A DNA stretch of 59,642 nt from a virus (Duplodnaviria; Caudoviricetes). How positions within the stretch are numbered: the first letter of the stretch is position 1; each line of letters opens with the position of its first letter. The position numbers were made by a program, and so were the translations under genes. The notes below the pieces were generated by a model. It had not been told where the DNA came from, did not search any database, and saw nothing but the letters and a program-made list of their open reading frames with translations. The stretch is taken from positions 1-59,642 of the IMG/VR virus record IMGVR_UViG_3300037248_000128; one strand, written 5' to 3'. This document shows positions 4,104-44,119 of this stretch, piece by piece.

Positions 4104-4333
4104 TGCACGTCCTTTCTCAGGGTCCATTCGCCGCAATAGCCCTCTTCGCTCGACATGAGCGGAAAAAAGGACATCTGGCGGGTTGAGGTTTGCGGCTGCA
4201 GCCCGTCGCGGCCGGGGACCATTTTCACGTCGCTCACGACCACCGGAGTCGGCGGAAATCTGCGGCAGATGCCCTCAGTTGGCGGGTCCTCGCTTTGGAG
4301 GAAGAACTTACAGTTGGAACACTGCTCCTTCAT
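4100..4333 (-). CDS. Small Cys-rich protein
   Basis: CSNCKFF...GICRRFPP...CGEW. Confidence 0.7.
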   Translation of the reverse strand: MKEQCSNCKFFLQSEDPPTEGICRRFPPTPVVVSDVKMVPGRDGLQPQTSTRQMSFFPLMSSEEGYCGEWTLRKDVH

Positions 4334-4953
4334 GGCCGCCCCGCTAGGCCGCAGTAGCCGTGGCGCCCACTGTTTGGGCGCGGCCCTTCGTTCAGTCGGG
4401 CATACTCCCCGTGAACATCCCTAGCCGCTGCATCGTAGGCCGCCGCTGCAGAGTCTTCGTCCGCGAAGGTCCCTAAGTGAAGGTGAACCCCCGACTTGGC
4501 TATTTGGGCCGCCCACTTACCGCTTTTGGTCATGAAAACTCCGCGATGCCTAGACCGACCTCCACGCGCCGCTGAGTTAGCTGCGTTTTGGGCGGGCGTG
4601 ACGAGTCGTAGGTTTCCGCGACGATTGTTTAGGGTGTCGCCGTCCCGGTGATCCACAAACATGCTCTTCGGGATCACGCCCCAGATGCGGCTAGCGATTT
4701 CGCGGTGCAGGTATCCCGCATCATTTTTCGCGTAGCGGCCAGACCACCAATATCCCCACCCGGCCACGTCACTATCGATCCTGTCGATGACTACCGACCG
4801 GTCGCCGCTTATCAGAAACCGCCAATCAGGCTGCCAGCGGAACGCCATGCAGGCCGACCCGATGCAAAACCCATCTGCATCGTGCGTGCCGCCGCGATAG
4901 CCCTCAACGGGACACGCCTTGGCTTTCGCTTCATCTTCGGTCATCGGGTCCAC
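4330..4953 (-). CDS. HNH endonuclease with AP2 domain, inside a small Cys-rich protein
   Basis: VDHRDGDTLNNRRGNLR (HNH_3); RGV..KWAAQI..HLGTF..AAAAYDAAA..HGEYARLN (AP2). Confidence 0.85.
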   Translation of the reverse strand: MDPMTEDEAKAKACPVEGYRGGTHDADGFCIGSACMAFRWQPDWRFLISGDRSVVIDRIDSDVAGWGYWWSGRYAKNDAGYLHREIASRIWGVIPKSMFVDHRDGDTLNNRRGNLRLVTPAQNAANSAARGGRSRHRGVFMTKSGKWAAQIAKSGVHLHLGTFADEDSAAAAYDAAARDVHGEYARLNEGPRPNSGRHGYCGLAGRP

Positions 4954-39288: not shown

Positions 39289-39316
39289 GGCGGGCAAGAT
39301 AGCCATCCTGCCTGCC
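39289..39316 (-). terminator. Hairpin closing the minus-strand pentamer unit
   Basis: GGCGGGCAAGAT-AGCC-ATCCTGCCTGCC imperfect 12-bp inverted repeat; no U-tract. Confidence 0.5.
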
Positions 39317-39391
39317 TCGCCGTGCCGGGCTATTCTTCTGCGCGCCATGCCATCACGGGCTTCTCCATGCCATTCGAGGCCGCGCCTTGCC
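39312..39391 (-). ncRNA. Single GGY-NN pentamer unit (putative guide RNA)
   Basis: 16 in-register pentamers ggcaa ggcgc ggcct cgaat ggcat ggaga agccc gtgat ggcat ggcgc gcaga agaat agccc ggcac ggcga ggcag. Confidence 0.8.
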
Positions 39392-39395
39392 AAAC

Positions 39396-39572
39396 TCAGG
39401 GCGAAAGTAACCTCTCGCGAAGTATGTGCCGCGCAGCCTGTGGCCGCGTAGCGATTCCTCGATAGGCGTCTAGCGCCGCCAACTCTTCAGGACGCAGGCG
39501 AACTTCAACCACAGTCGCATGGACGGGCGGTCTGCCCGTCTTTTTGCCTGTGTTATCTGTTGACGCCTGCAT
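39396..39572 (-). CDS. Small RHH-like regulator of the cassette
   Basis: KKTGRPP...VVEVRLRPEELAALDAYR...TRPQAARHIL. Confidence 0.7.
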   Translation of the reverse strand: MQASTDNTGKKTGRPPVHATVVEVRLRPEELAALDAYRGIATRPQAARHILRERLLSP

Positions 39573-39602
39573 TAAGCCAATGATACAGGTGGAAACTGTC
39601 AA
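39560..39602. promoter_or_regulatory. Candidate promoters for the two arms of the cassette
   Basis: TTGACG on plus strand (39560) and TTGACA on minus strand (39602) in an AT-rich stretch. Confidence 0.4.
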
Positions 39603-39648
39603 AAGGCAAGCCTGATTGTCGGGCACAGGGCCATGACAGGAGAACGAA

Positions 39649-40380
39649 ATGACGAAAACTGACCGAGAGAGCCTTGCCGGCGCATTGTCGTCCAAGGCAA
39701 CCTTCAAGGGCTTCAGCGTTTGGCTGGTCGGCGATACGCCGGTCATCACTCACGCGTGGAGCGAAAAAGCGCGGCGCGAGATGCTGCAGAAGCAGGTCAA
39801 GGCGACCAAGGGCGGGAAAGAGGCCCGCGATCCCGAGGCCGATTTTGTGTCGAGTCTCTACGAGATGGGCGACGGTGCCTACGGCTTCCCGGCGATGGGC
39901 GTGAAGAACTGCATTCTCAGCTCGGCGCACAAGGACAAGGGCATCCCAAGGTCGGCGGTGATGGCCGGTCTGTGGATCGACGCCGACATGGTGCGCACTC
40001 GACCGGCGCTCGCCGGCGCGGTCTGCGACATGCCGCTGATCCGCATCTACGGCACCGATCCGGAGATGCGGGAGGACATGGTGAAAATCGGCTCTGGCCT
40101 GAACAAGATCGCCAATCTGAGCTACCGCGCGCAGTTCACCGTGTGGGCGATGAAGGTGACCGGCCGGTTCAACACCACGATCCTGACGCCTGAGGCGCTG
40201 GCGTTCCTCATCCAAGAAGCTGGACTCGCGTCTGGCCTCGGCGAGTGGCGCAACGAGCGCCGCGGCATGTTCGGCGCCTTCCACCTCGCCGACGTGGACG
40301 AAGAGGCCGCATGGGAAGCCTACGCCGACGGCAAGGGCGACCTTCCGGTTCCGGCGTCCTATCGGCAAGCGGCGGAGTAA
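39649..40380 (+). CDS. Stand-alone Cas7/RAMP-like protein (VIPR-type effector candidate)
   Basis: N-terminal beta strand + G.TP.I.H; YGFPAMGVKNCI (P...K helix); C-terminal Gly-rich loop AGLASGLGEWRNERRGMFGAF; AGGAG RBS. Confidence 0.78.
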   Translation: MTKTDRESLAGALSSKATFKGFSVWLVGDTPVITHAWSEKARREMLQKQVKATKGGKEARDPEADFVSSLYEMGDGAYGFPAMGVKNCILSSAHKDKGIPRSAVMAGLWIDADMVRTRPALAGAVCDMPLIRIYGTDPEMREDMVKIGSGLNKIANLSYRAQFTVWAMKVTGRFNTTILTPEALAFLIQEAGLASGLGEWRNERRGMFGAFHLADVDEEAAWEAYADGKGDLPVPASYRQAAE

Positions 40381-40386
40381 CCAACC

Positions 40387-40890
40387 ATGAACTACGTGTT
40401 CAAGGACGCACCCGTCACGATCTTGAACGCCAAGCGCGCCGATCCCAACCGGATCGGCGCTGCCTTGGCGAAGATCGCCGAAGACGGGCACGGGCGCCTG
40501 ACGCCGAACGCCGTCGTGGAGGCCGCCCGGAATCCGCGTTCGCCGTTGCACCGGCACTTCGAATGGGACGACGCAAAGGCGGCCGAAGCATACCGGCTCG
40601 ACCAAGCTCGCGAAATCATCCGAGTTGTCCGTATCGAGGGCAACGACAATGAAGAACCCGTCCGAGCTTTCCTGTCCGTCAAGGACGCCGCTGGCGTCAG
40701 CTATCGAACGGCCGAAGACGTGCAGGGAAGCCTCGAACTTCAGCTTGCCGTCCTAAGGCAGGCTGAAGCCGATCTCGAGGCGTGGACGAAGCGCTACCGC
40801 GAACTCAGCGAAATCTGCGACGACGTGCTCAAGGCGCGCGACAAGATCAGGACGCGGCGCGAAGCGGCGGAAAGTCGTCTTCACGCCTAG
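40387..40890 (+). CDS. Partner protein of the RAMP-like gene
   Basis: LTPNAVVEAARNPRSPLHRHFEWDDAKAAEAYRLDQAREII; sits between the RAMP gene and the array. Confidence 0.75.
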   Translation: MNYVFKDAPVTILNAKRADPNRIGAALAKIAEDGHGRLTPNAVVEAARNPRSPLHRHFEWDDAKAAEAYRLDQAREIIRVVRIEGNDNEEPVRAFLSVKDAAGVSYRTAEDVQGSLELQLAVLRQAEADLEAWTKRYRELSEICDDVLKARDKIRTRREAAESRLHA

Positions 40891-40897
40891 ACGATTT

Positions 40898-41600
40898 GGC
40901 TGGGACCGGCGGCGCTTTGTCTGAGTGTCGGGCCGGGGCAGGGAAAAGCAGGCGCGGCCACGAAATGTGACGCAAGTCGGCGCGTGTCGCGAACGGGCAT
41001 GGCCGGATGGGCTGGGCTTGGTGGAGCCAGTCAGCGGAGGGAATGGCAGGTCTTTGCTCGGCAGGCGGGGCATCGAAGGTGATGGCGCATTGCGGAGCGG
41101 GAAGGTCATGTTTTGAGCGTCTCGTGTCGGCTCGTGATGGCAAGGCAGGCAGTGCTCGGGGGAGCGGGGCAGAGATCGTTGATGCAGCGCTCGGCCCAGT
41201 TAGGTGAGGCAGGCTCGGAACGGCCAGTCCCAGCAAGTGACGGAACGGCTCGGGCAGGTCGGCTTGGCAGGCGTGGACGGGCTTTGTCCGGCAGAGGCGA
41301 GCTAGTCGCGTAACGCCATGTCTCAGCTTGGCTCGGCAGGAATGGATATGCGAGGCCCGTTGTCGCCCGTCCCGGTAGGGACCGTGATGGCATCTCGCGG
41401 AACGGCGAGGCTGGATAGGAACGGCTGTGCCCGTAGCGGATTGGCTCGGTTGGGCAGGCTGGGAACGGTCGTGAGGGGCGAGCGTCGGCAATGCCCGGAC
41501 GGGAGGTGTTAGGCAAGGCTGGCGGGGTTGGGAAAGGCAAGTAGTCGATAGGACAGTCTCGTCTTCGCATCGCCCGGGCAGTCGTGGCCCAGTAGGGCTG
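40898..41600 (+). ncRNA. Array of about 11 GGY-NN pentamer units (putative guide RNAs)
   Basis: 5-nt periodicity; junction pentamers (mostly GGCAG/GGCTG) + 4-mer at 40947, 41001, 41060, 41144, 41208, 41266, 41335, 41409, 41453, 41517, 41596; no credible ORF. Confidence 0.85.
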
Positions 41601-41603
41601 GCC

Positions 41604-42059
41604 CTATGCGAACCGGCGCGCGTAAAGCGAACCGGTTATCGAGTAGCCCCGCGCTTGGAGCAAGTATTCGAGCGCGGGGTGACCGATACGACTCTCGATC
41701 ACGATGACGCACGGCTCGTCTTTCGACAAGTCCGCCTCCATGAAGTCGAACAGACCGCCCGCCGCGCCGACGTTTCGGTGCTCAGGCGCCACCCAGATCG
41801 TATCGTCGCGGGCGAACTTATGGTTATAGTGGGCGTGCCTCGGCACAACCGTCATGATGCAGTAGCCGATCAATCGACCGTTGAGGCGTGCGGTGTAGGC
41901 GAACAGCAGTCCAGCGCGGTTCGCTCTCTCGTAAAATCCGAAGTCAGGGTCAAGCGGCGTCTCGACAAGCCGCAACCCAAGTTCCGCCCAGTGCACGGGC
42001 AGCAGCGGACGCAACTCGTCGATCACGTCGCTATAGTTTTCGCGGCGGTATTCGATCAT
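41604..42059 (-). CDS. GNAT-family acetyltransferase
   Basis: GRLIGY...IWVAPEHRNVGAAGGLF...RGY. Confidence 0.8.
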   Translation of the reverse strand: MIEYRRENYSDVIDELRPLLPVHWAELGLRLVETPLDPDFGFYERANRAGLLFAYTARLNGRLIGYCIMTVVPRHAHYNHKFARDDTIWVAPEHRNVGAAGGLFDFMEADLSKDEPCVIVIESRIGHPALEYLLQARGYSITGSLYARRFA

Positions 42060-42394
42060 GAGGCGACTCCCGCAGCGGCTTCCTCCGCTTCGTGGATTTG
42101 CCAGTGAGTGTAGACGAATCCGCGAAGGCTGTTCGGGTTGGTGTAGTCCACATCCTGAAGATCGAACAGCGTCGTGCCGAGGAAGCTGGATTCGTCGATG
42201 TGGCTCTGATTGTTGCGCTGCAAGAACCCGGGGAAGTCGCGCAGGTCTATAGGGTCGAGCACATACTCGATGAGTTGCGGCCCGCCTTTGGCGACGATGC
42301 CCTGCCGGATCACGTTGTGGCTGACGCGGTGATGGAACGACCAGCGCAGCCAGTCTTCGGGCGTCTGCGGGACCTCAAGCAGGACCGGGAGCAA
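42056..42394 (-). CDS. Hypothetical virion-module protein
   Basis: Coupled ORF, His-rich. Confidence 0.65.
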   Translation of the reverse strand: MLPVLLEVPQTPEDWLRWSFHHRVSHNVIRQGIVAKGGPQLIEYVLDPIDLRDFPGFLQRNNQSHIDESSFLGTTLFDLQDVDYTNPNSLRGFVYTHWQIHEAEEAAAGVAS

Positions 42395-42397
42395 GGC

Positions 42398-42709
42398 TCA
42401 CTCGGAAGTGCGATTTGACCGTCCGCCCGGCCGCGTCGAGTCCTCGGGCAATTCGCCCATCGAGAACGGGTAAACTTTGTTGAAGCCTGTTCCAACGTCG
42501 TGTCCGGTGCCGTTCGGCGTCTGGCTGGTGAAGCCGTTCGGGTTCTGCCCCTTCGCGTACAGCCCCTCAAGGTCCCACTGACGGCTCATGTTGCCGCCGC
42601 GGGTCGCTGGCATCATCGGCACGCCGGGACTGTGGCCGGCCATGATCTCTGGCTGTCGGCCGAAGCCCACGTCGATCGCGGCTGTCGGAACGTCTCGGCG
42701 GCGGGCCAT
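42398..42709 (-). CDS. Hypothetical protein
   Basis: AGGAG RBS. Confidence 0.65.
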   Translation of the reverse strand: MARRRDVPTAAIDVGFGRQPEIMAGHSPGVPMMPATRGGNMSRQWDLEGLYAKGQNPNGFTSQTPNGTGHDVGTGFNKVYPFSMGELPEDSTRPGGRSNRTSE

Positions 42710-42718
42710 GCGTGTCTC

Positions 42719-44119
42719 CTAGATTCCGACGGCGTTACTGTCCGTGTATCCAATGACCAGATCGCCGACCGTGAAGTCCGGGCTCGTGCTGGTGAACGTA
42801 AGCTGAGCGGCGTTGAAATAAAAGCCCTCGCTGCCTGAGCCCCAGACCGACCAGTAGGGCTGCGGCGCCGGGAGGCTGGGGTTCTGATCCACGAGCGCGC
42901 CCGTCGACAGCGTGAGGTTCTGCATCTCCGCGTAGGTCGGGTCTGCGGGCTGCAGCGCGACGCCTGAGCCGGTGAACGTCAGATCCACCGTCACGCCAGA
43001 TTGGGCCGCGGTGTTGTCCTGCATGGCCGTCCAGAGGCCGCGGAGCTGCTTGGTCACCAGCATCGTGTCGATGCCGTACGTCTTGGTGGTGAGCGTCTTG
43101 GTGAGGTTGCCCGAGGCTTGCTGGAACAGCGGGAACAGATTGGTCCCGTCGGTGCCCCAGGCGGTGAATTTGCTCTCGACCTTCTGCTGGGCGATGCGCG
43201 TCAGGTTCACCGACTGGCTTGTGACTACCCAGTCCTTTTCGTTCCACGTCAGCATGACGTTGCGCGGGTTGTTGCCGAACTGATCTTGGACGCTCAGCAG
43301 CAGCATGTAGTGCTTGATGTTGAAGAGATGCGCGAGCGCCGAGGACGGCGTGATTCCACCGTTCGGCGGGAAGACCACGTTGATCGGGCCCGGATAGGTC
43401 GGCGTCGGCGTGGCGACCGCCGTCCACGTCAGATTTCCCGTTCCCGTCCAAGTTGCCGCAGGATTCGGCGGCGGTGGCGGGGCCATCGAACCGCCGCTGA
43501 TCGGCGGAAAGTCGGTCTGCGGAATATCATTCAGGCCGTAGAAGGCGAGAAACCGTAGACGGAACAGTTCAGGCGGGCCGCCGAAGGTCGAGTTGACGAC
43601 ACCGGGCTCTTGAATAAAGACGGTCTGCACGCCGTCCCCGAGAAAAACGCCGCTGCCGTTGAATGAGATGTACTGCTGCGGCAGCGATGGGTCCCAACTA
43701 CAGACCGCCGTTCCTTGGTAATCGCCGAAGGCGGCCGGATCACCGCCAGCAGCGTAGAAGTTTACCGTCGCGGGAAAGGAGGGAGGGACCGGACCGATGT
43801 ACCCCAGCCCCCGGGTTCCGACGCTATCCAGCAGAAAGACATTGCTTGACGGCTCCTCCGCCGGAACGCCGGGCGTTGCGTAAGCATCGGTCCACGTCGC
43901 CACCATGACGCCGCCGGGGATGAGCGTTCTTCCTCGCAGCAAGCCAACGGCTAGGGCGGTGAAAAATGGGCCCCCGGGACTACCCGGAAAGTTGGGCAGC
44001 AACCCCCCGCCATCCACCGTCGGAGTGTCAAAAATATCGGTTATCGCACAGTAGCCAGTGTCCGCGTTGTAGTAGGTCCCGGCGATGAAGTCGCAGTAGA
44101 TGATGGGAACGACGGTCAT
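42719..44119 (-). CDS. Tail protein
   Basis: ATGA-coupled to the upstream tail gene; beta-rich. Confidence 0.65.
   Translation of the reverse strand: MTVVPIIYCDFIAGTYYNADTGYCAITDIFDTPTVDGGGLLPNFPGSPGGPFFTALAVGLLRGRTLIPGGVMVATWTDAYATPGVPAEEPSSNVFLLDSVGTRGLGYIGPVPPSFPATVNFYAAGGDPAAFGDYQGTAVCSWDPSLPQQYISFNGSGVFLGDGVQTVFIQEPGVVNSTFGGPPELFRLRFLAFYGLNDIPQTDFPPISGGSMAPPPPPNPAATWTGTGNLTWTAVATPTPTYPGPINVVFPPNGGITPSSALAHLFNIKHYMLLLSVQDQFGNNPRNVMLTWNEKDWVVTSQSVNLTRIAQQKVESKFTAWGTDGTNLFPLFQQASGNLTKTLTTKTYGIDTMLVTKQLRGLWTAMQDNTAAQSGVTVDLTFTGSGVALQPADPTYAEMQNLTLSTGALVDQNPSLPAPQPYWSVWGSGSEGFYFNAAQLTFTSTSPDFTVGDLVIGYTDSNAVGI

What the first reader, a model, noticed from the sequence alone, without database searches (positions are those of the whole stretch)
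40898..41600. Array grammar: 5-nt period with a 4-nt phase reset defining about 11 units
The region parses as pentamers whose first three bases are degenerate GGY-like (GGC, GGA, GGT, GTC, AGC, TGC...) and whose last two are free. Each unit ends in a GGCAG/GGCTG-type pentamer followed by a 4-mer GNNN. Junction spacings are 54, 59, 84, 64, 58, 69, 74, 44, 64, 79 nt; all equal 5n+4 except one 1-nt slip near 41257-41260. The units share no ordinary sequence identity, so repeat and CRISPR finders would likely miss them. The junction is a plausible processing or loading signal (inference).
Basis: seen in the sequence. Interest (0 to 1): 0.9.

Follow-up and report, generated by a model that had tools for sequence, protein, structure and literature searches.

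The report
Phage VIPR staggered guide-RNA array
The five-base rhythm is real and marks an array of about ten guide RNAs of a VIPR system, a CRISPR-like phage weapon first described in 2026, so it is a good new example of a known kind rather than a new kind of element.

Summary
The 713-nt ORF-free gap 40891-41603 is 42% G. Its lag-5 G autocorrelation is +0.29 (z 7.7), with a coherent spectral peak at 4.92 nt.

It is the "staggered" vrRNA array of a VIPR system (bioRxiv 10.64898/2026.04.26.720920, fig. S18 legend). The gene just upstream (39649-40380) has SUSP1 Vipr as its only PDB sequence hit (profile E 4.3e-5). It keeps the GGY-binding residues and models as a Cas7-like RAMP. A conserved partner gene (40387-40890) follows.

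Of 88 assessable loci with a Vipr homologue, 77 carry the same downstream array. There, 274 of 289 register slips are 4-mers with consensus GGCA|GGC.

One unit (40951-41004) matches the vipr genes of rival phages in frame at 18/20 bases, but its own vipr at only 15/20. No target was found for the other units.

No RNA ends could be examined, so processing at the junctions is still inferred.

The scan has already noted VIPR arrays in at least 180 other genomes. Verdict: new member of a known kind, of modest interest.

The parts
39313..39396 (-). Solo vrRNA-like unit upstream of vipr, on the opposite strand: 84 nt, 16 pentamers plus a closing GGCA, followed by GGC.
   Evidence: Parse of both strands. 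One of only two places in the window that reach 15-16 of 18 in a 9-pentamer G scan; the shuffle maximum also reaches 16, so this alone is weak. An exact 233-nt contig of a soil metatranscriptome covers 39325-39557.
39649..40380 (+). vipr gene: 243-aa minimal RAMP (Cas7-like) protein.
   Evidence: Its only PDB sequence hit is 36pp 'SUSP1 Vipr protein' (E 9.3e-4 single; 4.3e-5 profile). R160, E199, W200 and R201 align with SUSP1 R138, D177, W178 and R179 and are invariant in 30 homologues. VIA-align Z 5.7-7.4 to Csm3, Cas7-11, Cmr and type VII Cas7. phrog_4652, unknown function.
39925..39953 (+). Own vipr codons 93-102 (AHKDKGIPRS): the site homologous to the predicted target of unit 40951-41004, matched at only 15 of 20 bases.
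   Evidence: The own allele has Pro CCA and Arg AGG where relatives have Ala GCN and Arg CGN.
40387..40890 (+). vap candidate: 167-aa accessory protein with a winged-helix-like N-terminal domain and a long C-terminal helix.
   Evidence: tblastn finds a homologue next to vipr in 84 of 95 Vipr-anchored loci. AF2 pLDDT 95.9. Foldseek gives only weak matches to forkhead/ArsR/BlaI/MarR folds, best E 0.043. No Pfam family. phrog_15946, unknown function.
40893..40950 (+). Leader, or a decayed unit: degenerate pentamers with two 4-mers, closed by AGCA before the first clean unit.
40951..41004 (+). Unit of 54 nt (10 NN + GGCC). Predicted guide against the vipr genes of related phages.
   Evidence: 18 of 20 bases in frame in L009, L010, L013, L023 and L024, and 17 of 20 in 5 more of 79 loci. 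The shuffled-guide maximum is 17.
41005..41063 (+). Unit of 59 nt (11 NN + GGCA).
   Evidence: The antisense decode reads like an HNH-type motif (family name recalled). No target was sought.
41064..41147 (+). Unit of 84 nt (16 NN + GGCA).
   Evidence: The antisense decode ends ...EANWFAAAILMP. No target found.
41148..41211 (+). Unit of 64 nt (12 NN + GGCA).
41212..41260 (+). Unit of 49 nt (9 NN + GGTC).
41261..41269 (+). Mini-unit of 9 nt (one pentamer + GGCA). Too short to guide, so probably a doubled junction.
   Evidence: 9-nt units also occur in relatives.
41270..41338 (+). Unit of 69 nt (13 NN + GGCA).
41339..41412 (+). Unit of 74 nt (14 NN + GGCT).
   Evidence: The antisense decode is SVAIIGLGGTGSYI-like. 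No target found.
41413..41456 (+). Unit of 44 nt (8 NN + GGCA).
   Evidence: A 15/16 match in L072 is out of codon register and at the shuffle maximum, so I take it as chance.
41457..41520 (+). Unit of 64 nt (12 NN + GGCT).
41521..41599 (+). Last unit, 79 nt (15 NN + GGCT). The array ends 4 nt before the stop codon of the convergent GNAT gene.

Best explanation
The region is the downstream guide-RNA (vrRNA) array of a phage-encoded VIPR system, in the 'staggered' architecture. The locus reads: solo vrRNA (- strand), then vipr, vap and the array of 10 units (+ strand).

Shown: the periodic grammar, the Vipr homology, the conserved partner gene, and the conserved association of array with gene.

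Inferred from the SUSP1 work: the array is transcribed with or after vipr-vap. One Vipr protomer binds each pentamer. It buries G1, G2 and Y3 and presents the two free bases. The free dinucleotides of a unit pair with double-stranded DNA, skipping every third target base, and silence transcription.

Inferred here: each unit of 9-17 repeats is one guide. The conserved GGCA|GGC junction, one base short of a pentamer, breaks the protomer register. That ends one filament and starts the next, taking the place of the pseudoknot tail that caps type II vrRNAs.

One unit (40951-41004) is aimed at the conserved AHKDKG[IV]AR codons of rival phages' vipr genes. The phage's own allele falls below the published 80% threshold.
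For: Periodicity and the 5n+4 parse.

Vipr:
- The only PDB sequence hit at E <= 10 is SUSP1 Vipr.
- The four aligned GGY-contacting residues named in 10.64898/2026.04.26.720927 (section 5) are kept and invariant.
- 48 of the 50 VIA-align rows carry CRISPR effector titles, at Z 5.7-7.4.

Same strand, directly behind vipr-vap, as in SUSP1.

Comparative evidence:
- 77 of 88 assessable Vipr loci have a + strand period-5 G array within 1.5 kb downstream. Of control windows elsewhere, 60 of 21,418 do.
- All 4 of 4 loci found through the partner protein alone also have one.
- Slips: 4-mers 100, 6-mers 10, others 2 in the close clade; 4-mers 174, others 3 in the distant clade.
- Unit length mod 5 equals 4 in 77 of 85 and 116 of 116.

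Unit sizes of 9-17 repeats fit the published 9-16. The free positions are near maximal entropy, and no unit is shared with any of 305 relatives' units (best NN identity 0.64-0.75), although Vipr is 75-89% identical.

Target: unit 40951 matches relatives' vipr at 18/20, in frame with the skip at the wobble base, against 15/20 for its own copy. vipr-targeting vrRNAs with lower self-scores are described for SUSP1-family phages (passages of 10.64898/2026.10.15.759431). No unit matches the phage's own genome above shuffled guides.
Against: - No RNA evidence for the array: the one metatranscriptome has no contig on it, and contigs cannot show ends.
- Only 1 of 10 units has a predicted target, and that target was found in a set of loci chosen for carrying vipr.
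- In the all-against-all test the 1-nt skip rule is barely enriched: at >= 0.9, 2 guides against 0 shuffled; at >= 0.8, 49 against 45.
- Exact NNx scans found nothing meaningful.
- The Vipr model is of middling confidence (pLDDT 63.6). Foldseek has no match at E <= 0.001, and Z values below 8 can be common folds (note).
- Sequence similarity to SUSP1 Vipr covers only residues 146-210.
- Only 40 of 120 pentamers are strict GGY, and 23% have A at position 3. The SUSP1 pocket is said to exclude a purine there.
- There is no 3' tail.
Confidence: 0.9

Rival explanations
1. It is a VIPR array, but the junctions are not processing sites. The whole ~700-nt transcript stays in one piece and carries several Vipr filaments separated by register breaks, or units are released by unrelated host RNases at variable places.
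For: No RNA ends were seen here. No nuclease domain was found in Vipr or the partner. The paper did not confirm staggered arrays by sRNA-seq.
Against: The junction sequence is conserved beyond what a bare register break needs: C at 92-97% and A at 89-91% of 274 junctions in two divergent clades. The fig. [quoted passage not shown] SUSP1 vrRNAs are discrete ~100-nt species.
Confidence: 0.07
2. It is a DNA-level element such as G-quadruplex-prone DNA, a packaging site or a replication site. The GG-every-five-bases pattern would act as DNA, not as RNA guides.
For: 42% G on one strand with GG runs every 5 nt could in principle form two-tetrad quadruplexes. This rests on inference alone; no call supports it.
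Against: It does not explain the near-random positions 4-5, the 5n+4 units, the conserved GGCA|GGC junction, the fixed position and strand behind a Vipr homologue in 77 of 88 loci, or the in-frame match of one unit to vipr genes.
Confidence: 0.02
3. It is a structured non-coding RNA or a protein-coding stretch (the - strand ORFs 40847-41491 and 41106-41570), and the rhythm is a by-product.
For: Two long - strand ORFs of 214 and 154 aa overlap the array.
Against: No codon periodicity: power 0.6 at period 3 against 58.9 at 4.92. A G-rich + strand leaves few stop codons on the - strand. The RNA fold is no better than shuffles, z = -0.82, with 6 of 20 shuffles folding as well. No Rfam family matches in 39500-43000 except a sub-threshold hit outside the array.
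Confidence: 0.01

Closest known systems
VIPR systems with staggered vrRNA arrays (bioRxiv 10.64898/2026.04.26.720920, Results and fig. S18 legend)
   Same: A phage-borne minimal RAMP gene plus accessory gene, with a downstream same-strand array of GGY/NN pentamers. Neighbouring vrRNAs share one base, which is the same thing as a 4-nt phase reset. There is no spacer sequence between units, and 9-17 repeats per unit.
   Different: Nothing that I could test. The figure itself and the supplementary data were not visible. I therefore cannot say whether the GGCA|GGC consensus, the degenerate interiors or this Vipr clade are already shown there, nor which of the seven types this locus belongs to.
Type II VIPR of Escherichia phage SUSP1 and the Pseudomonas fulva prophage (same preprint; structures in 10.64898/2026.04.26.720927; PDB 36pp)
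   Same: The locus order is one upstream vrRNA, then vipr, vap and a downstream array. The G-loop and thumb residues that hold G1, G2 and Y3 are kept (R160, E199, W200, R201). A guide is aimed at rival vipr genes with a lower self-match, as reported for SUSP1-family phages.
   Different: - There is no ~40-nt conserved 3' tail or pseudoknot; units abut directly.
- The protein is 243 aa against 202, with recognisable sequence similarity over only 65 residues.
- GGY is looser: A at position 3 in 23% of pentamers, and only 62 of 120 are GG.
- The upstream vrRNA is on the opposite strand.
- The host is probably a soil alphaproteobacterium, not an enterobacterium.
Class 1 CRISPR-Cas effector backbones (Cas7/Csm3/Cmr4 filaments on crRNA)
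   Same: A RAMP fold, with one protomer per fixed number of guide bases, and a thumb that flips bases out at a fixed period. The best structural matches are Csm3, Cas7-11, Cmr and type VII Cas7.
   Different: - The period is 5 nt with three bases buried, not 6 nt with one flipped.
- There are no direct repeats or spacers.
- No cas1, cas2, cas6 or large-subunit genes are nearby.
- The guide information is not contiguous.

Membership tests
VIPR system | A Vipr protein: a minimal single-RRM RAMP with G-loop and thumb | tested here: met
   SUSP1 Vipr (36pp) is the only PDB sequence hit at E <= 10: E 9.3e-4 for the single sequence and 4.3e-5 for the profile. VIA-align gives Z 5.7-7.4, rmsd 3.0-5.0 A over 118-154 residues, and 48 of 50 rows are CRISPR RAMP complexes. 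Foldseek alone is weak, best E 9.4e-3. Model pLDDT is 63.6.
VIPR system | Residues that bind the GGY motif (SUSP1 R138 in the thumb; D177, W178, R179 in the G-loop) | tested here: met
   They align with R160, E199, W200 and R201. All four are invariant in 30 homologues. Asp is replaced by Glu. SUSP1 H17 and K33 lie outside the aligned stretch and were not assessed.
VIPR system | vrRNA genes: tandem pentamers with a conserved GGY and hypervariable NN, at least 4 units (the paper's search rule), 9-16 repeats per vrRNA | tested here: met
   120 pentamers in 10 units of 9-17 repeats. Entropy at positions 1-5 is 1.28, 0.91, 1.69, 1.98 and 1.96 bits. Strict GGY holds in only 40 of 120. The paper notes frequent internal degeneracy and related consensus forms.
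VIPR system | An accessory vap gene beside vipr | tested here: met
   The 167-aa ORF sits 6 nt after vipr. Homologues lie next to vipr in 84 of 95 loci. The winged-helix-like fold rests on weak matches only. I could not assign it to vap1-6, because the supplementary data are closed.
VIPR system | Targets follow the 1-nt skip rule at 80% NN match or more, usually in coding sequence with the skip at the wobble base | tested here: inconclusive
   1 of 10 units has such a target: relatives' vipr, 18/20 bases, in frame. None was found for the others in the sequence I could search. Mismatch-tolerant searches of large collections were not possible.
VIPR system | No self-targeting by the locus's own guides | tested here: met
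   No unit exceeds the shuffled-guide maximum in the 59.6-kb genome. The vipr-directed unit scores 15/20 on its own gene.
VIPR system | vrRNAs are expressed as discrete small RNAs and co-purify with Vipr | not testable with these tools
   One RNA run only, held as contigs. It has no contig on the array, and an exact contig on 39325-39557 that covers the upstream solo unit.
Staggered vrRNA array (sub-architecture of VIPR) | Adjacent vrRNAs overlap by 1 nt, with no tail or ribozyme between them | tested here: met
   All 11 junctions between 40951 and 41599 are 4-mers. No hammerhead or other Rfam family matches. Relatives: 274 of 289 slips are 4-mers.
Type II VIPR (SUSP1-like) | A conserved ~40-nt 3' tail with a pseudoknot after each repeat tract | tested here: not met
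   Units abut directly. There are no repeated sequences of 14 nt or more apart from two chance-like pairs. The fold z-score is -0.82.
CRISPR-Cas array | Direct repeats of 20-40 nt alternating with unique spacers, plus cas genes | tested here: not met
   TRF and the repeat finder find no such repeats. The neighbouring ORFs have no cas families in Pfam or PHROGs.

The most novel reading that the evidence does not exclude
In this tail-less Vipr clade, which spans soil alphaproteobacterial phages and gut Clostridia phages, the conserved one-base-short junction GGCA|GGC would itself be the unit terminator. By breaking the 5-nt protomer register it would stop one Vipr filament and seed the next, and so fix where the precursor is cut. 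Guide length would then be set by a frameshift in the repeat code rather than by a structured handle. A bolder, less likely addition: units 41005, 41064 and 41339 spell enzyme active-site-like motifs and are aimed at genes of host defence or of rival elements.
Probability: 0.35. Interest if true: 0.5.

Novelty: new member of a known kind. Interest (0 to 1): 0.3.

Why it matters
VIPR is a class of RNA-guided DNA silencers published only in 2026, and the experiments so far cover type II systems with tailed vrRNAs. This locus is a compact, complete example of the tail-less staggered architecture: a solo vrRNA, vipr, vap and 10 units within 2.3 kb. The paper inferred that architecture but did not confirm it by RNA sequencing.

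The comparative numbers gathered here give a concrete, mutable signal for testing how such guides are delimited. They are the GGCA|GGC junction at 274 of 289 register slips, unit lengths of 5n+4 in 193 of 201 cases, canonical unit ends with degenerate interiors, and complete turnover of guide content between phages whose Vipr is 75-89% identical.

The vipr-directed unit shows one way a phage can avoid its own guide. The own allele differs by one amino-acid change (Ala to Pro) and by an Arg codon of the other family (AGG for CGN). Skipping the wobble base does not close that second route.

Beyond this, the finding adds an example, not a principle.

Tried and rejected
Ideas dropped early
- A TRAP-like or other ring protein binding a 5-nt-period RNA, and a nucleoprotein coat of unknown kind, were my first thoughts (recalled analogies, no call). 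I dropped them once the Vipr homology appeared.

Similarity searches
- BLAST of 39600-42400 against the phage collection in distant mode: no match.
- Rfam on 39500-43000: only a sub-threshold Mu-gpT-DE hit at 39610-39651.

Target hunting, mostly empty
- Own genome: no unit scores above shuffled guides.
- 305 unique guides parsed from relatives, scanned against this phage: 4 reach 0.85 or more, against 3 for shuffled guides.
- All-against-all over 99 loci: at 0.9 or more, 2 guides against 0 shuffled; at 0.8 or more, 49 against 45. The many skip-3 matches are homologous arrays matching one another.
- Unit 41064, full 16-NN pattern with up to 3 mismatches: 0 of 2 genomes and 0 of 401 genomes of the order of the closest prophage host.
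- Unit 41064, first 11 NN, exact: 0 in viral contigs and 0 in metagenome contigs.
- Unit 41339, central 10 NN, exact: 0 in viral contigs.
- Unit 40951, full pattern, exact: 0 in viral contigs and 2 in metagenome contigs. Neither lies in a vipr homologue (no tblastn hit). About that many are expected by chance for 20 fixed bases.
- Unit 41339 against 30 ThiF-family loci from 41 genomes: best 18/28, and 184 of 200 shuffled guides do as well. The E1/ThiF reading of the sibling note is not supported for housekeeping genes of that family.
- Unit 41413 gives 15/16 in L072. That equals the shuffle maximum, is out of codon register and lies in the distant clade, so I take it as chance.
- The family names attached to the decoded motifs (HNH, ImmA/IrrE, E1) are recalled, not tested.

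RNA
- The soil metatranscriptome X3 has no contig on 40891-41603, and contigs could not show ends in any case. This says nothing either way about expression of the array.

Small ORF
- 39399-39572 (- strand): no Pfam family at E <= 1.

Type assignment and prior description
- Neither could be settled. Figures and supplementary data are closed. 'Staggered' occurs 3 times in the first preprint, 0 times in the second and 0 times in the third. None of the passages I saw states a junction consensus.
Full report
Observation. The window is a single 59,642-base virus record. Between the stop codon of a + strand ORF (40387-40890) and that of a convergent GNAT acetyltransferase gene (41604-42059, - strand) lies a 713-nt gap with no credible gene. 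Its + strand has 301 G, 169 C, 124 T and 119 A. The autocorrelation of G is +0.29 at lag 5 and stays at +0.16 to +0.24 at lags 10 to 30. It is negative at lags 2-3 and 7-8. In 2000 first-order Markov shuffles the lag-5 value had mean -0.001, sd 0.038 and maximum 0.145, which gives z = 7.7. The power spectrum peaks at 4.92 nt (58.9). It shows nothing at exactly 5.0 (0.1) or at the codon period 3 (0.6). A period of 4.92 is what a 5-nt repeat gives if it loses one base every 13 repeats or so. In a scan of the whole window, every strongly periodic 300-nt window lies in this gap.

Parse. A dynamic-programming tiling rewards G, G, Y at the first three places of each tile and penalises 4-mers and 6-mers equally. 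From 40951 to 41599 it gives units of 54, 59, 84, 64, 49, 9, 69, 74, 44, 64 and 79 nt. Each is closed by a 4-mer: GGCA six times, GGCT three times, GGCC once and GGTC once. No 3-, 6- or 7-mer appears. Its single irregular 58 is 49 + 9, so every unit obeys 5n+4. The stretch 40893-40950 is a degenerate leader or a decayed unit.

Over the 120 full pentamers, positions 1 and 2 are G in 72% and 78%. Position 3 is C 53%, A 23%, T 13%. Positions 4 and 5 are almost random, at 1.98 and 1.96 bits. Only 62 pentamers are GG and 40 are GGY. The first two and the last pentamer of a unit are canonical and the middle ones are degenerate. Tandem Repeats Finder and the repeat finder see nothing of this.

What it is. 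A note from an earlier follow-up on this genome pointed to VIPR systems, and I checked that lead independently. The preprint 10.64898/2026.04.26.720920 describes phage loci with a minimal RAMP protein (Vipr), an accessory gene (vap) and vrRNAs. I read its Results, Discussion, three methods sections and figure-legend passages. The vrRNAs are made of 9-16 GGY/NN pentamers. Their NN bases pair with double-stranded DNA, skipping every third target base. It also mentions 'staggered arrays with overlapping vrRNAs', and the fig. S18 legend says that the vrRNAs come 'from 1 nt overlapping positions'. A 1-nt overlap of two pentamer tracts is the same thing as a 4-nt junction.

The protein evidence fits.
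- The 243-aa ORF 39649-40380, two genes upstream on the same strand, has one PDB sequence match at E <= 10: entry 36pp, 'SUSP1 Vipr protein'. E is 9.3e-4 for the single sequence and 4.3e-5 for a profile of 30 homologues.
- The aligned stretch holds the residues that 10.64898/2026.04.26.720927 (section 5) names as holding the GGY motif. SUSP1 R138, D177, W178 and R179 align with R160, E199, W200 and R201, and all four are invariant in the 30 homologues.
- The AlphaFold model is only moderate (pLDDT 63.6), and Foldseek gives no match at E <= 0.001.
- The top Foldseek rows and 48 of 50 VIA-align rows are CRISPR RAMP subunits (Csm3, Cas7-11, Cmr, type I-C and type VII Cas7), at Z 5.7-7.4.

The partner gene.
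- The 167-aa ORF 40387-40890 has no Pfam family.
- Its model is confident (pLDDT 95.9): a small alpha/beta domain and a 50-residue C-terminal helix.
- It has only weak winged-helix-type matches, best E 0.043.
- It is a conserved partner. tblastn finds a homologue beside vipr in 84 of 95 Vipr-anchored loci.

Comparative evidence.
- The Vipr family is large: 1,760 proteins at E <= 0.001 among 2,675 candidates, and the 120 listed are all 75% identical or more.
- I fetched 79 viral and 16 genomic loci anchored on it. Seven have under 400 nt after the gene. Of the other 88, 77 have a + strand period-5 G array within 1.5 kb downstream. Of 21,418 control windows elsewhere in the same loci, 60 do, and some of those are real upstream arrays.
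- The four loci found through the partner protein alone also carry an array just behind it.
- Parsing these arrays gives 100 4-mers, 10 6-mers and 2 other slips in the 20 close loci. It gives 174 4-mers and 3 other slips in the 58 distant ones.
- Unit length mod 5 equals 4 in 77 of 85 and 116 of 116 cases.
- The 4-mer reads G (85/97%), G (100%), C (92/97%), A (89/91%) and is followed by GGC. The parser does not reward the A, nor C over T, so this conservation is real. My filter required GG-rich pentamers on both sides, which inflates the flanking G frequencies only.
- The closest cellular copies are prophages in a Tianweitania sp. (76% identity) and in Ancylobacter polymorphus (42%). The distant clade sits in Clostridia-type gut MAGs. 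The DNA is held by soil metagenome runs. The host is thus probably a soil member of the Hyphomicrobiales; this is an inference.

Guide content. None of the ten units shares its NN string with any of 305 unique units parsed from relatives; the best identity is 0.64-0.75, which is chance level. Guide content therefore turns over completely while the protein stays conserved. No unit matches the phage's own genome above shuffled guides.

One unit has a credible target. The NN string of 40951-41004 reads A-[HQ]-[KN]-[DE]-[KN]-G-V-A-R-[IM]. It matches the vipr genes of related phages at the homologous AHKDKG[IV]AR site, in frame with the skipped base at the wobble position.
- It matches at 18 of 20 bases in 5 of 79 loci, at 17 in 5 more and at 16 in 8 more.
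- Twenty shuffled-order guides scanned over all loci reached 17 at most.
- The phage's own gene scores 15 of 20, because it has Pro (CCA) for the usual Ala and writes Arg as AGG instead of CGN.
- Guides against rival vipr genes with lower self-scores are reported for SUSP1-family phages (passages of 10.64898/2026.10.15.759431).
- The caveat is that my locus set was chosen for carrying vipr.

For the other units I found nothing; the scans are listed under Tried and rejected. The antisense decodes of units 41005, 41064 and 41339 do read like enzyme motifs, as sibling notes said. Their family names are recalled, and the one I tested (ThiF family) did not hold.

How it most likely works.
- Shown: the grammar, the Vipr and partner genes, their conserved linkage with such arrays, the conserved junction, and one in-frame target with self-avoidance.
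- Taken from the SUSP1 work: one protomer binds per pentamer. G1 and G2 sit in one protomer and Y3 in the next. The NN bases are presented for gapped pairing, and the outcome is transcriptional silencing.
- Inferred here: the array is read through from vipr-vap, since no terminator-like site lies between them. Each 5n+4 unit is one guide. The junction leaves one base instead of two between a Y3 and the next G1, so a continuing filament cannot stay in register. The junction would then end one complex and start the next, doing the job of the pseudoknot tail that this clade lacks.
- The conserved C and A at the junction suggest that it is also recognised as sequence, by Vipr or by a nuclease. Nothing here shows which.
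- A rival view, that the junctions are not cut at all, cannot be excluded without RNA ends.

RNA data. One soil metatranscriptome holds a small share of the locus, as contigs. It has no contig on the array. Its one exact contig (233 nt, 39325-39557) covers most of a solo 84-nt unit on the - strand (39396 to 39313, closed by GGCA and followed by GGC). It also covers the stretch up to a promoter-like site at 39609-39580. That is a weak hint that the upstream unit is transcribed. It is no evidence about the array.

Comparison and novelty. The locus meets every VIPR feature I could test, and it meets the definition of the staggered architecture. It does not have the type II tail. It is not a CRISPR array. 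I could not assign one of the seven types, nor check whether the junction consensus is already in the paper's figures, because the figures and supplements are closed. The scan itself has 283 earlier notes on VIPR arrays in at least 180 genomes, several of them calling the array staggered and one naming GGCA as the separator. This is therefore a new member of a known kind. It is real and tidy, and useful as a test bed for how tail-less guides are delimited, but it will not surprise anyone who has read the 2026 preprints.

Noticed in passing
window 39313-39396 (- strand), with 39399-39572 and 39580-39609: A solo 84-nt vrRNA-like unit lies on the opposite strand, upstream of vipr. It starts right after the stop codon of a 58-aa ORF (no Pfam family) that sits behind a promoter-like site. 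An exact 233-nt contig of a soil metatranscriptome covers 39325-39557. Another report of the scan treats this unit.
   Followed up: partly
window 39610-39651 (+ strand): A sub-threshold Rfam match to Mu-gpT-DE RNA (25.1 bits against a gathering score of 49, E 0.0092) overlaps the ribosome-binding region and start codon of vipr.
   Followed up: no
loci L026-L083, e.g. L039 3501-3950 and L053 3451-3950 plus 4251-4700: In the distant (gut Clostridia-type) clade the array sits between vipr and the partner gene, and some loci carry a second array after the partner. The partner's mRNA would then have to be read through a guide array.
   Followed up: partly
window 39925-39953: The phage's own vipr differs from the family consensus (AHKDKGIAR) by Pro for Ala and by an AGG Arg codon, exactly where its own guide would otherwise match. 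Switching between the two Arg codon families is a synonymous escape that skipping the wobble base does not block.
   Followed up: partly
window 41261-41269; also L012 4255-4263: Nine-nucleotide mini-units (one pentamer plus GGCA) occur between normal units, as if a junction had been doubled. They are too short to guide.
   Followed up: no
L029 unit at 4150 against L025 near 1578: A relative's guide matches another viral contig at 21 of 22 bases under the 1-nt skip rule. This was the best hit of the all-against-all scan. I did not identify the gene it falls in.
   Followed up: no
window 41604-42059 (- strand): A GNAT-family acetyltransferase gene converges on the end of the array, only 4 nt away, with no terminator-like site between them.
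   Followed up: no
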